IMG/VR virus record: IMGVR_UViG_2695420889_000011
Span: 1-11,785 of that record
Strand: one strand, 5' to 3'
From: a virus
Lineage: Duplodnaviria > Heunggongvirae > Uroviricota > Caudoviricetes
DNA: 11,785 nucleotides
Position 1 is the stretch's first letter, and every line of letters begins with the position of its first letter. The position numbers and the translations under genes are program-made. The notes under the pieces are model-generated. The model saw only the letters and a program-made list of their open reading frames with translations. It did no database searches and was not told the origin of the DNA. This document shows, piece by piece, positions 1,871 to 4,426 of this stretch.

Positions 1871-4426
1871 ATGAGCAATAATTTGCAGGACATCCTCGCT
1901 GCCGCATCGGGGTATCAGTCCGTGACTTCAGAGCCAGCGCTCAATCTTAAAAGACCTAAAACGCTTGATGATTATCCTGTGATACCACCTGCATCAAAAA
2001 AAGTATCTGTTATTTCAAGTGACCTGACACTCCATATCGGTTTTGATACCGAATATGTTTTCAATCCTGAAACACAACAGAATGATATTCTGTCATATCA
2101 GAGTTATGTTGTCTTACCCGATAATACAGGTATATCGAACATTATCTATCCACCTGACTCACAGAAAAAATCCCGGCTGTCTTTTAAGAACTTTCTCTGT
2201 CAAACGATTACACCGCTTCTTGAAACGGGTGTGATTACAAAATGGCCCGGTATTATTAATATATATGCGCATTTCATTCGTGCGGATATCACCTCCTTTG
2301 CCAATTTCTGGTCAGACTACAAAATTCTTCTGAAAGGAATACGCGGTACTGTCAGCAGCTTCAAAAATCGTTACGGTATCGATTTTGATGAACAGCAGGA
2401 ACGTCGCGTAAAGACTGAACAGATAATGTTTGACAAACGAACTTCCCCTCCGCGTTGCAGTAACGTAGCTTTCATCGATACACTGCTTATCACTCCCGGG
2501 GGTATGGGTCTGGCTGAATGTGGTGAATTACTGGGTCTTCCCAAACTGACCATTCCTGCACCTTATTCCATAACCAATATGCGTGAATATCTTCTGGGCG
2601 ACAGAGCAGGGTTTGAAGCCTATGCTCTGCGGGATGCCGAGATTGCGGTTCGTTATGCTTTACAGGTTCGCAATTTTTGCGCCCGGGAGCTGATGATTGA
2701 TCGTGTCCCCGCCACCATCGGGGCGATGGCAGTTTCACGGTTCACCAAAACACTTAAAGAAAACAATATGTCTCCTGAAGTCTGCCTTGGGACACACATT
2801 AAAACCCGTGAACTCTGGCTCACGGAGAAACAGGCATTCCGGACGATTAAAAACCCCGCCAGTGTTCCTTCAAGAGAGCTGTTTGAAACGTTCCCGATCA
2901 ACTGTTACCACGGCGGACGCAATGAGTGTTTTATGATGGGGGTTACACCGTCTGATCACTGGTATGACTACGATCTGGCTGGAGCGTATACCACCGGGCT
3001 ATTAGATATCCTCATACCCGATTACGGAAACATCCGCCTCAGTAAAAATCCGGACGATTACTGTGGGCATGTAATGGGATTTGCGTTTGTCACATTTCAG
3101 TTCCCGGAATCAGTTCCCTATCCCAGCCTGCCGGTTCGGACCGATCAATATGGGTTATTCTTTCCATTAAGTGGCGAATCATGGGCAACGGCACCTGAAA
3201 TCGAACTTGCTCTGTCGCTCGGGGCAGAGATGACGATCCATAATGGGATCATCGTCCCCTGGATCTGTGACACCTCCCCACATAACAGCGAATCAACATC
3301 GGTGTTTCTTCCCTTTGTTCAACAGGTCCGTGAGAACCGTAATCGCCATATTAAAGGTTCTCTGGAGGAGAAATTCTGGAAAGAAATTGGCAACTCGCTT
3401 TATGGCAAACTTGCTCAGGGCCTTCGCGCCAAAACCGCCTTTGATACTGCCCGTGGATTAAACAGATCCCTCCCACCATCATCGGTTACTCAGCCATTCT
3501 TTGCTGCGCATGTGACGGGATTTATCCGCGCCGTTGTCGGGGAACTCATGAATGCTTTGCCTTCTGATTCATCGGTTGTCAGCGTCACAACCGATGGCTT
3601 TTTGACAAATTGCCCACTTAACAAGATAAACATGAGCGGTCCACTGTCTTCCCGCTTCCAGTCGCTGTGCGATATTGTTGATCCGGGTTCATCAATGTTG
3701 ACATGTAAGCATGAGGTCAGCCAGCTTATCGCCATGAAAACCCGGGGGCAGTTAACCTATAGAGCTATTCAGGGAAAACCTGTTGTTCATGCCAGGGCTG
3801 GCGTCAAACCTCCTGCCGATATTCCACGCAGTGACTATAACGACTATATGGTAGATCTTTACCTTAATCGTTTACCCGGTCAGACGTTATCCCGAAGTAC
3901 GTTGATATCAACGCGTGAGATGTGGCTGTCGGAAAGCGATCTGGTATCCCGGGAACAGGATATCCGTCTTAATCTGGAATTCGATTTCAAACGCCAGCCC
4001 GTACAGCCCGCCATGAATGAAGGGCATTTACTGATGTCTTCCCGCCCATGGGATAATATGGAAGAGGCTCTGCAGCAACGCTCTCTTTTCGACGACTGGC
4101 GGCAAACGCATACACTGAAGACCCTGGCTGACTGGGATGACTGGTGTGATTTTCTCTATTGCCGGACGGTGTTTTCTGATATGAAACTAAAAGTCGGAAG
4201 CAAACGTAGTGATGATATTTTAGTCAGACTATTTCTCCGGGCGCTGACTCAGTGCCAATGGGGGCTTATGCTGAAAGATAAAAAAAGTTATTCCTGTAAA
4301 GAGGTTGCTGAATGGCTGACGTCAGAAGGCTATTCAGTAACATGTCAAAAAGCACCTGCTGGATCTCCCGGGCCCGAAGGTCGCAGTAACGTATCTTCCC
4401 CAGACGAGGTTCAATGTATTGCGTGA
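1871..4426 (+). CDS. Family B DNA polymerase with 3'-5' exonuclease domain, piPolB-like (primer-independent PolB of pipolin-type elements)
   Basis: 851-aa ORF with SD GGAG 7 nt upstream. Ordered motifs: Exo I HIGFDTEY (D59, E61), Exo III-like YALRD (251-255), motif A-like DYDLAGAYTT (366-375), motif B KEIGNSLYGK (504-513, matching Kx3NSxYG), motif C-like VTTDGF (572-577), KTRG (623-626). The PolB call is strong; the piPolB subgroup assignment is from genomic context (recombinases, tRNA-derived att repeat) and memory. Confidence 0.8.
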   Translation: MSNNLQDILAAASGYQSVTSEPALNLKRPKTLDDYPVIPPASKKVSVISSDLTLHIGFDTEYVFNPETQQNDILSYQSYVVLPDNTGISNIIYPPDSQKKSRLSFKNFLCQTITPLLETGVITKWPGIINIYAHFIRADITSFANFWSDYKILLKGIRGTVSSFKNRYGIDFDEQQERRVKTEQIMFDKRTSPPRCSNVAFIDTLLITPGGMGLAECGELLGLPKLTIPAPYSITNMREYLLGDRAGFEAYALRDAEIAVRYALQVRNFCARELMIDRVPATIGAMAVSRFTKTLKENNMSPEVCLGTHIKTRELWLTEKQAFRTIKNPASVPSRELFETFPINCYHGGRNECFMMGVTPSDHWYDYDLAGAYTTGLLDILIPDYGNIRLSKNPDDYCGHVMGFAFVTFQFPESVPYPSLPVRTDQYGLFFPLSGESWATAPEIELALSLGAEMTIHNGIIVPWICDTSPHNSESTSVFLPFVQQVRENRNRHIKGSLEEKFWKEIGNSLYGKLAQGLRAKTAFDTARGLNRSLPPSSVTQPFFAAHVTGFIRAVVGELMNALPSDSSVVSVTTDGFLTNCPLNKINMSGPLSSRFQSLCDIVDPGSSMLTCKHEVSQLIAMKTRGQLTYRAIQGKPVVHARAGVKPPADIPRSDYNDYMVDLYLNRLPGQTLSRSTLISTREMWLSESDLVSREQDIRLNLEFDFKRQPVQPAMNEGHLLMSSRPWDNMEEALQQRSLFDDWRQTHTLKTLADWDDWCDFLYCRTVFSDMKLKVGSKRSDDILVRLFLRALTQCQWGLMLKDKKSYSCKEVAEWLTSEGYSVTCQKAPAGSPGPEGRSNVSSPDEVQCIA

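What the first reader, a model, noticed from the sequence alone, without database searches (positions are those of the whole stretch)
2969..3601. Non-canonical catalytic motifs in the polymerase domain (motif A DLAGAYTT, motif C TTDG with a single Asp)
Canonical PolB motif A is Dx2SLYPS and motif C is YxDTDS with two aspartates. Here motif A retains the Asp and Tyr but lacks the Ser-Leu and Pro, and motif C has Thr in place of the first Asp (VTTDGF), while motif B is perfectly canonical. This selective divergence suggests altered active-site chemistry (for example priming ability or translesion synthesis) rather than decay, since the ORF is intact over 851 codons.
Basis: seen in the sequence. 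Interest (0 to 1): 0.45.

Follow-up and report, generated by a model that had tools for sequence, protein, structure and literature searches.

The report
Known piPolB polymerase signature motifs
The odd catalytic motifs are real and correctly placed, but they are the published signature of the primer-independent DNA polymerase (piPolB) of E. coli "pipolin" mobile elements, so the finding is already explained; this copy has also lost its conserved C-terminal end to a deletion.

Summary
ORF 1871-4426 (851 aa) carries motif A D368-LAGAYTT, a canonical motif B K504-EIGNSLYG and motif C S571-VTTDG. It has no DTD or SLYPS anywhere else. Profile alignment to the Bam35 and phi29 polymerases puts these segments in register with DxxSLYP, KxxxNSxYG and YCDTDS. 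In 150 representative homologues (31-50% identity) D368, Y373 and D575 are invariant, T574 is T in 147/148, and position 573 is never Asp.

This is not new. The window is E. coli chromosome and the gene is the pipolin piPolB. Its residue numbers (D59/E61, D368, K613/H614, K623/R625) match the enzyme characterised by Redrejo-Rodriguez et al. 2017. That paper already reports SxTTDG in all piPolBs, an inactive D368A variant, primer-independent synthesis and translesion synthesis. It maps priming and lesion bypass to K613 in the KH-X8-KTRG motif, not to motifs A or C.

"Intact ORF" needs correcting. A 5.8-kb deletion at nt 4341 replaces the conserved last 42 codons with 27 codons read antisense to an integrase remnant. 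The element is also IS-disrupted and sits beside a P2-like prophage, a pipolin subgroup already described.

Verdict: already known, low interest.

The parts
1871..4426 (+). piPolB gene, an 851-aa deletion-derived allele. Residues 1-824 are 99% identical to the common 866-aa E. coli piPolB.
   Evidence: annotated 'DNA-directed DNA polymerase' WP_022582033.1 in 100%-identical genomes
2045..2053 (+). ExoI motif D59-T-E61. D59A/E61A is the published exonuclease-deficient variant.
   Evidence: D 124/128, E 124/127; PMC5695915
2270..2287 (+). ExoII-like segment HFIRAD, with the nearly invariant D139
2621..2635 (+). ExoIII motif Y251-ALR-D255
2966..2995 (+). Motif A, D366-Y-D368-LAGAY373-TT. D368 is the catalytic Asp and Y373 the steric-gate Tyr. 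The family consensus is D-[YF]-D-L-x-[GS]-A-Y-[TPS]-T.
   Evidence: beta-strand 364-369 followed by helix 372-377 in the model
3380..3406 (+). Motif B, K504-EIGNSLYG (canonical Kx3NSxYG), in the fingers helix 498-514
3581..3598 (+). Motif C, S571-V-T573-T574-D575-G576 (piPolB signature SxTTDG). T573 replaces the first Asp of YxDTDS. It lies at the turn of the beta-hairpin 569-573 / 576-579.
   Evidence: PMC5695915
3707..3748 (+). KH-X8-KTRG motif (K613 H614 ... K623 T R625 G626), which replaces the KxY motif. K613 is the published determinant of priming and lesion bypass.
   Evidence: PMC5695915
4343..4426 (+). Foreign 27-codon tail (CQKAPAGSPGPEGRSNVSSPDEVQCIA) plus stop codon, read antisense to an integrase remnant. 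The deletion junction is at nt 4341.
4338..4814 (-). Remnant (Arm DNA-binding domain only) of the pipolin's tRNA-proximal tyrosine integrase, which is a full 399-aa gene in ETEC H10407
   Evidence: PF13356, E 7.6e-15
1..207 (+). 3' end of an IS3-family transposase gene. The IS insertion truncates the neighbouring integrase.
   Evidence: window 1-247 has no match in H10407
173..985 (+). 5'-truncated tyrosine recombinase of the pipolin (the piPolB-proximal, XerC-like / IntP2-type integrase)
   Evidence: PF00589, E 3e-22
1183..1821 (+). Conserved pipolin ORF (212 aa) directly upstream of piPolB, with no family match
4895..5635 (+). Conserved hypothetical ORF (246 aa) at the pipolin right end
   Evidence: phrog_29550
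5878..5932 (-). 55-nt copy of the 3' part of tRNA-Leu. It is the att repeat that marks the pipolin/prophage boundary.
   Evidence: alignment to the intact tRNA-Leu locus of RM9872; ARAGORN finds no complete tRNA
6039..7040 (-). Integrase of a P2-like prophage integrated in tandem with the pipolin. The prophage early region continues to the end of the window.

Best explanation
The ORF is the primer-independent family-B DNA polymerase (piPolB) of an E. coli pipolin integrated at tRNA-Leu. Its non-canonical motif A (DxD-L-x-[GS]-A-Y-[TP]-T) and motif C (SxTTDG) are the conserved signature of the whole piPolB family. They are not a peculiarity or decay of this copy.

Mechanism, from published work on an essentially identical enzyme: D368 (motif A) and D575 (second Asp of motif C) bind the catalytic metals. 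The first Asp of the canonical DTD is dispensable and is Thr in piPolBs. Y373 is the steric gate, so only dNTPs are used. The enzyme combines 3'-5' proofreading, strand displacement, bypass of abasic and oxidised bases, and de novo (primase-like) DNA synthesis that Mn2+ stimulates. Priming and lesion bypass depend on K613 in the KH-X8-KTRG motif, which replaces KxY.

Shown here: the motif registration, the family-wide conservation, a phi29-like fold, and the genomic context.

Inferred, not tested: that this particular 851-aa allele, which has lost the conserved C-terminal 42 residues to a 5.8-kb deletion, is still active.
For: - Host and prevalence: the window is 100% identical to E. coli O145-type chromosomes, and the gene occurs in 422 of 5426 complete genomes, always chromosomal.
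- Residue types at positions 59, 61, 368, 613, 614, 623 and 625 match the published mutants exactly (against PMC5695915).
- It is 99% identical over aa 1-824 to the common 866-aa allele.
- hhalign against Bam35 DNAP (97.7%, E 1.9e-12) and phi29 DNAP gives the same register for motifs A, B and C.
- The family is large: 2073 representative clusters. D368, Y373, K504, G512 and D575 are invariant in the 150 representatives, K613 in the 136 that span it, and T574 is T in 147/148. No Asp occurs at position 573.
- The AF2 model has pLDDT 87.8 and pTM 0.86. Motif A lies at a strand end followed by a helix, motif C at a hairpin turn and motif B in a helix.
- The best PDB matches are phi29 DNAP entries (E 5e-17, TM 0.68), ahead of RNA-primed PolBs (TM 0.28-0.37).
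- dN/dS is 0.17 against the H10407 allele.
- The context is that of a pipolin: tyrosine recombinases, a type I R-M system upstream, a tRNA-Leu att fragment and a tandem P2-like prophage.
- Literature: SxTTDG in all piPolBs, inactive D368A, priming and lesion bypass (PMC5695915). The same point is repeated in PMC7544198.
Against: - No curated model recognises the protein at threshold. Pfam DNA_pol_B_2 scores 17.7 bits against a cut-off of 25.8, NCBIfam gives nothing, and there is no PDB sequence hit even with a profile.
- The reference protein sequence (GI 693097161) was not in hand, so identity to the characterised enzyme rests on matching residue numbers and on the >98.8% identity among E. 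coli piPolBs reported in PMC7385651.
- This allele lacks a conserved, confidently folded C-terminal segment and sits in an element with both integrases damaged, so its activity is unproven.
Confidence: 0.93

Rival explanations
1. This particular copy is a non-functional or impaired remnant. The motifs are those of the family, but the 851-aa allele was crippled when a deletion removed its conserved C-terminal segment, in a pipolin that is decaying in place.
For: - A 5.8-kb deletion joins codon 824 to antisense integrase sequence.
- The lost 42 residues are present in 80/80 full-length homologues and include conserved positions (N830, A831, R833, P843, T845; P860 is 73/79).
- In the 866-aa model they form two helices with block pLDDT of 86-96.
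- The replacement tail is less confident in the model (block pLDDT 54-84).
- Both pipolin integrases are truncated: one by an IS3-family insertion, the other reduced to its Arm domain.
- The contiguous junction is found in only 32 of 5426 genomes.
- The literature proposes that such prophage-adjacent pipolins are inactivated (PMC7385651; PMC11551731).
Against: - All exonuclease and polymerase motifs, and the whole phi29-like core up to about residue 725, are untouched.
- There is no internal stop or frameshift.
- The allele is maintained unchanged in many O145 isolates (97 contigs).
- The lost segment lies in a piPolB-specific C-terminal helical extension whose role is unknown.
Confidence: 0.35
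2. One reading: the substitutions in motifs A and C themselves (loss of Ser-Leu-Pro; Asp to Thr) create the altered chemistry that allows priming or lesion bypass.
For: - The substitutions are family-wide and co-occur with the priming phenotype (PMC5695915).
- A372 (A 128/147, C 18/147) replaces the Leu next to the steric-gate Tyr.
- D366 is a piPolB-specific acidic residue (D 140, E 7 of 147). Bam35 has H and phi29 has V at the hhalign-equivalent position; PRD1 has V and RB69 has S two residues before the motif A Asp.
- De novo synthesis is stimulated by Mn2+. [quoted passage not shown]
Against: - The only residues shown experimentally to separate priming and lesion bypass from elongation are in KH-X8-KTRG (K613A).
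- The authors read T573 only as evidence that the first Asp is dispensable.
- Archaeal PolB2-type enzymes also have only one conserved Asp in motif C and are not reported to prime (PMC7544198).
- No mutant of T573, A372 or D366 appears in the papers held.
Confidence: 0.15
3. It is a protein-primed PolB, like those of phi29, Bam35 and PRD1, which needs a terminal protein. The unannotated 212-aa ORF directly upstream might encode that protein.
For: - The closest fold and profile matches are protein-primed polymerases.
- In phi29, PRD1 and Bam35 the gene directly upstream of the polymerase encodes the terminal protein or an ORF in its position.
- A conserved ORF with no family match sits 50 nt upstream of piPolB here.
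Against: - The purified enzyme alone starts DNA synthesis de novo on unprimed M13 and homopolymer templates (PMC5695915).
- The element is integrated at a tRNA gene with att repeats. It is not a linear genome with terminal inverted repeats.
- The KxY motif is replaced by KTRG.
Confidence: 0.03
4. The motifs were mis-registered, and canonical DxxSLYPS and DTD motifs lie elsewhere in the protein.
For: None was found. Sequence similarity to characterised PolBs is low (12-13% to phi29 in the structural alignment).
Against: - There is no DTD, SLYPS or LYP string anywhere in the protein.
- hhalign to Bam35 and to phi29 agrees on the register.
- The predicted secondary structure places each motif on the expected palm or fingers element.
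- The published D368A variant is inactive.
Confidence: 0.01

Closest known systems
piPolB of the E. coli 3-373-03_S1_C2 pipolin (Redrejo-Rodriguez et al. 2017, Cell Rep 21:1574; PMC5695915)
   Same: It comes from the same species and the same kind of element. Residue types are identical at every published mutant position (D59, E61, D368, K613, H614, K623, R625). It has the same SxTTDG and KH-X8-KTRG motifs. It is 99% identical over aa 1-824 to the common 866-aa E. coli allele.
   Different: The C-terminus differs. The last 42 native residues are replaced by 27 unrelated residues because of a 5.8-kb deletion, and there are a few point substitutions (for example 10 amino-acid differences from the H10407 allele). 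Activity of this truncated allele has not been tested.
Truncated enterobacterial pipolin subgroup with a co-integrated prophage (PMC11551731, section 16; PMC7385651, section 11)
   Same: It shows the same features: a deletion between piPolB and the tRNA-proximal (IntSXT-type) integrase that leaves only the Arm domain, an IS next to the other integrase, and a myovirus-type (P2-like) prophage in tandem at the same tRNA-Leu.
   Different: Nothing substantive. The exact junction (nt 4341 here) and its effect on the piPolB C-terminus were worked out here, but partially truncated piPolBs are mentioned in those papers.
Protein-primed PolBs (phi29, Bam35, PRD1 DNA polymerases)
   Same: The overall fold is shared (phi29 TM 0.68). 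The exonuclease motifs, the motif B Kx3NSxYG and the catalytic Asp, steric-gate Tyr and second Asp are all in the same register.
   Different: Those enzymes have motif A DxxSLYP, motif C YCDTDS and a KxY motif, and they need a terminal protein. piPolB has [GS]-A-Y-[TP]-T, SxTTDG and KTRG, an extra N-terminal segment and a C-terminal helical extension of about 140 aa. It needs no primer.
Archaeal PolB2 (B2/G2 group) and other PolBs with a single conserved Asp in motif C (PMC7544198)
   Same: The first Asp of motif C is lost while the second is kept. These were long taken as a sign of inactivation, a view questioned in that paper by reference to the activity of piPolB.
   Different: They belong to an unrelated PolB clade of RNA/DNA-primed type. 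[quoted passage not shown] They are not associated with pipolins.

Membership tests
piPolB (primer-independent PolB) | PolC motif SxTTDG, with Thr in place of the first Asp | tested here: met
   S571-V-T-T-D-G576. It aligns to YCDTDS of Bam35 and phi29. T573 is 138/148, T574 147/148 and D575 148/148 in homologues.
piPolB (primer-independent PolB) | KH-X8-KTRG in place of the KxY motif | tested here: met
   K613-H614, then 8 residues, then K623-T-R-G626. K613 is 136/136 and R625 134/136.
piPolB (primer-independent PolB) | Conserved ExoI, ExoII and ExoIII residues plus the motif A Asp and motif B | tested here: met
   D59 and E61, D139, Y251 and D255, D368, and K504 to G512 are all present and invariant or nearly invariant.
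piPolB (primer-independent PolB) | pPolB-type architecture with TPR1 and TPR2 insertions | tested here: inconclusive
   The AF2 model matches phi29 DNAP best (E 5e-17, TMt 0.68), against TMt 0.28-0.37 for RNA-primed PolBs. The TPR1 and TPR2 subdomains were not delimited individually because no coordinates were available.
piPolB (primer-independent PolB) | Encoded in a pipolin: an integrative element with tyrosine recombinase(s) and att repeats at a tRNA gene | tested here: met
   The gene is flanked by two (damaged) tyrosine recombinase genes, with a type I R-M system upstream and a tRNA-Leu 3' fragment at 5878-5932.
piPolB (primer-independent PolB) | Full-length protein including the conserved C-terminal segment | tested here: not met
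   Residues 825-866 of the common allele are replaced by 27 foreign residues. The lost segment is conserved in 80/80 homologues.
piPolB (primer-independent PolB) | De novo (primer-independent) DNA synthesis and lesion bypass in vitro | not testable with these tools
   This is published for the near-identical 3-373-03_S1_C2 enzyme (PMC5695915). It has not been assayed for this allele.
Pfam DNA_pol_B_2 (PF03175; organellar and viral type-B polymerases) | Score above the Pfam gathering threshold | tested here: not met
   The score is 17.7 bits against a cut-off of 25.8 (E 0.0018) over aa 282-520. Homology is nevertheless supported by hhalign to Bam35 (97.7%) and by the fold.
Protein-primed PolB | Terminal-protein gene and a linear genome with terminal inverted repeats | tested here: inconclusive
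   The element is integrated at a tRNA gene with att repeats and is not linear. The 212-aa ORF upstream has no family match, so a terminal-protein-like role was not formally excluded here. Published biochemistry shows that no terminal protein is needed.

The most novel reading that the evidence does not exclude
The piPolB-specific active-site changes may be functional contributors to Mn2+-stimulated de novo initiation and lesion bypass, acting together with the known K613. These changes have not been probed by mutagenesis in the papers held. They are T573 in motif C, A372 in place of the Leu next to the steric-gate Tyr, and above all D366. D366 is a near-invariant acidic residue two positions before the catalytic D368 on the same beta-strand. 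The residue at that position is H in Bam35, V in phi29, V in PRD1 and S in RB69. D366 could be an extra carboxylate that accompanies loss of the first Asp of motif C. A second, minor reading is that the 851-aa allele is still active, which would define the conserved C-terminal 42 residues as dispensable for catalysis.
Probability: 0.2. Interest if true: 0.4.

Novelty: already known. Interest (0 to 1): 0.1.

Why it matters
piPolB is of real interest in itself. It is the only family-B polymerase known to start DNA chains without a primer, it shows that the first Asp of the near-universal DTD motif is dispensable, and it is being developed for primer-free whole-genome amplification. All of that was established from 2017 onward on an essentially identical E. 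coli protein, so this finding adds no new knowledge.

The small additions made here are three. First, the exact deletion junction that gives this lineage a chimeric, C-terminally truncated piPolB. Second, quantified conservation of motif A across about 150 diverse representatives. Third, the observation that D366 and A372 are conserved family-specific positions that no mutant in the papers held has tested.

Tried and rejected
- Sequence searches of the PDB found no polymerase, either with the single protein (only a spurious E 0.43 hit) or with an 82-sequence profile (no hit). Motif registration therefore relied on hhalign against polymerases fetched from phage genomes and on fold search.
- hhalign against RB69 gp43 aligned only a short exonuclease-domain stretch (probability 11%), so it says nothing about the palm motifs.
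- The Pfam match was below threshold, NCBIfam found nothing and PHROGs gave only weak polymerase hits.
- ARAGORN found no complete tRNA. The att fragment came from alignment to a genome that lacks the prophage.
- A literature search for a piPolB structure was badly framed and returned irrelevant papers. Among the 24 papers that mention piPolB or pipolin, no title or abstract listed describes a solved structure.
- I wanted to measure distances from D366 and T573 to D368 and D575 in the AF2 model, but model coordinates are not exposed to the scripting tool.
- Mis-registration, decay of the motifs and protein priming were considered and rejected as main explanations (see the rival explanations).
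Full report
**What is in the sequence**

The window holds an 851-codon ORF at 1871-4426 on the + strand. The finding's span, 2969-3601, corresponds to residues 367-577.
- DLAGAYTT, aa 368-375, nt 2972-2995
- KEIGNSLYG, aa 504-512, nt 3380-3406
- VTTDGF, aa 572-577, nt 3584-3601

The protein contains no DTD, SLYPS or LYP string. The only D-x-D strings are at residues 171, 366 and 754.

**Is the registration right?**

Sequence-only tools barely recognise the protein:
- Pfam DNA_pol_B_2 scores 17.7 bits, below its 25.8 cut-off.
- NCBIfam finds nothing.
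- The PDB sequence search finds no polymerase, either with the protein or with a family profile.

I therefore fetched the phi29, Bam35, PRD1 and RB69 polymerase genes from phage records. I compared them with a profile of 82 diverse homologues (alignment A1).

Against Bam35 DNAP, hhalign gives 97.7% probability (E 1.9e-12) over residues 335-578. The motifs align as follows:

| Motif | This protein | Bam35 DNAP |
|---|---|---|
| A | DYDLAGAYTT | HYDKNSLYPY |
| B | KEIGNSLYGK | KLMQNALYGK |
| C | SVTTDG | YCDTDS |

The phi29 alignment is weak (32%) but lands in the same register: FDVNSLYPA, KLMLNSLYGK and YCDTDS. The RB69 comparison was uninformative.

An AlphaFold2 model built on A1 is confident (pLDDT 87.8, pTM 0.86). 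It places:
- D368 near the end of strand 364-369, which is followed by helix 372-377
- motif B in helix 498-514
- T574-D575 at the turn of hairpin 569-573 / 576-579

These are the classical positions of palm motifs A and C and the fingers motif B. Foldseek against the PDB returns phi29 DNA polymerase entries as the top nine hits (E 5e-17, target TM 0.68). Archaeal and eukaryotic PolBs follow at TM 0.28-0.37.

**Is it more than chance or decay?**

An exhaustive HMMER search of 1.84 billion representative proteins finds 2073 clusters at E <= 1e-3 and 566 at E <= 1e-30. I aligned the best 150, which are 31-50% identical to the query.

| Motif | Conservation in the 150 representatives |
|---|---|
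| A | D366: D 140, E 7 of 147. D368 147/147. Position 371: G 78, S 60. A372 128/147 (C in 18). Y373 147/147. Position 374: T 83, P 31, S 20. T375 105/147 |
| B | K504 150/150. N508 148. Y511 144. G512 150 |
| C | S571 123/148. T573 138/148 (S 4, I 3, V 2; never D). T574 147/148. D575 148/148. G576 143 |

The non-canonical residues are therefore a conserved family signature. Between this allele and the ETEC H10407 allele, dN/dS is 0.17 over 824 codons.

**What it is**

- The window is 100% identical to the chromosome of E. coli 99-3311 and nearly identical to many O145 strains.
- The gene is present in 422 of 5426 complete E. coli genomes and is always chromosomal.
- The residue types at positions 59, 61, 368, 613, 614, 623 and 625 are D, E, D, K, H, K and R.
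- These are exactly the residues mutated in the piPolB of the E. coli 3-373-03_S1_C2 pipolin by Redrejo-Rodriguez et al. 2017 (PMC5695915).

That paper already states the following:
- In all members of the group the first Asp of the PolC motif is replaced by Thr (SxTTDG).
- The activity of the enzyme shows that only the second carboxylate is needed for metal coordination.
- D368A abolishes polymerisation.
- The conserved Tyr steric gate explains why NTPs are not used.
- The enzyme has proofreading, strand displacement, bypass of abasic and thymine-glycol lesions, and primer-independent DNA synthesis that Mn2+ stimulates.
- KxY is replaced by KH-X8-KTRG. K613A selectively impairs priming and lesion bypass.

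That motif is present here as K613-H614, eight residues, then K623-T-R-G626. Kazlauskas et al. 2020 repeat the point about the missing first Asp and compare it with the archaeal B2 group (PMC7544198).

The finding is therefore already known. D575 does not appear in the text of the 2017 paper.

The inference 'altered function, not decay' and the guess 'priming or translesion synthesis' agree with the published biochemistry. However, the experiments place the determinant of priming and lesion bypass in KH-X8-KTRG, not in motifs A or C. The motif A differences are not discussed in the text of the paper, which names only KxY and PolC as notably variant.

I note two family-specific motif A features that no mutant in the papers held addresses:
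- A372 replaces the Leu that precedes the steric-gate Tyr.
- D366, two residues before D368 on the same strand, is acidic in all 147 representatives. The residue at that position is H in Bam35, V in phi29, V in PRD1 and S in RB69.

Whether these contribute to initiation or to Mn2+ preference is an open but modest question.

**The ORF is not intact**

The common E. coli allele is 866 aa. This one is 99% identical to it over residues 1-824 and then diverges. BLAST against ETEC H10407 shows that window 1008-4341 matches locus L008 3904-7238, and window 4341-10102 matches L008 13047-18808.

- A 5.8-kb deletion has removed the cargo genes between piPolB and the tRNA-proximal integrase.
- It fuses codon 824 to the antisense strand of that integrase.
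- Only the Arm DNA-binding domain of the integrase remains (4338-4814, - strand).
- The result is a 27-residue foreign tail.

The lost 42 residues are present in 80/80 full-length homologues and include conserved positions (N830, A831, R833, P843, T845; P860 in 73/79). In a model of the 866-aa allele they form two helices with block pLDDT of 86-96. All 150 representative alignments end near query residue 824-834, apart from a few extending to 841-848.

The contiguous junction occurs in 32 of 5426 complete genomes. In most of the other 409 matching genomes the two halves map to separate places.

The rest of the element is also damaged:
- An IS3-family element truncates the other recombinase (window 1-207 and 173-985).
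- A 143-bp segment present in H10407 is missing at window 1007/1008.

A 55-nt fragment of tRNA-Leu (5878-5932) marks the boundary with a P2-like prophage integrated in tandem.

This configuration has been described in PMC11551731 section 16 and PMC7385651 section 11. It comprises a deletion between the IntSXT-type integrase and piPolB, an IS near the other integrase, a monophyletic piPolB clade and prophage co-integration. Whether the truncated polymerase is still active is unknown. I put the chance that it is impaired at about one in three.

**Verdict**

Novelty is 'already known' and interest is low. The only additions are the precise anatomy of the truncated allele and the pointer to D366 and A372 as untested conserved positions.

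Noticed in passing
window 4341 (junction); 4343-4426 (+) and 4338-4814 (-): A 5.8-kb deletion relative to ETEC H10407 fuses piPolB codon 824 to the antisense strand of an integrase remnant. This gives a 27-aa foreign tail and removes a conserved, well-folded 42-aa C-terminal segment. The contiguous junction is found in 32 of 5426 complete E. coli genomes.
   Followed up: yes
window 2966-2968 (D366) and 2984-2986 (A372): D366 is acidic in 147/147 piPolB representatives. The equivalent residue is H in Bam35, V in phi29, V in PRD1 and S in RB69. A372 replaces the Leu next to the steric-gate Tyr. Neither is mentioned in the text of the 2017 paper. D366 could be an extra active-site carboxylate.
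   Followed up: partly
window 1-247 and 173-985: The end of an IS3-family element abuts and truncates the 5' end of the piPolB-proximal tyrosine recombinase gene. In H10407 this gene is a full 1131-bp CDS.
   Followed up: partly
window 1007/1008: A 143-bp segment present in H10407 (L008 3761-3903) is absent here. Its loss removes the annotated start of the small helix-turn-helix (excisionase-like) gene between the integrase and the 212-aa ORF. A 61-aa GTG-started ORF (997-1182) remains.
   Followed up: no
window 1183-1821 (+): A conserved 212-aa ORF lies 50 nt upstream of piPolB and has no Pfam, NCBIfam or PHROG match. It occupies the position that the terminal-protein gene holds in phi29, PRD1 and Bam35. 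Its function is unknown.
   Followed up: partly
window 5878-5932 (-): A 55-nt copy of the 3' part of tRNA-Leu (att repeat) separates the pipolin from a tandemly integrated P2-like prophage. The prophage integrase is at 6039-7040 (-) and its early genes run to the end of the window.
   Followed up: yes
window 10103-10544: This stretch in the prophage early region has no counterpart in the H10407 prophage. It holds a 136-aa ORF (10122-10532, annotated hypothetical) and has a strong AT skew (0.30). The following segment, 10545-11784, is only 88% identical to H10407.
   Followed up: no
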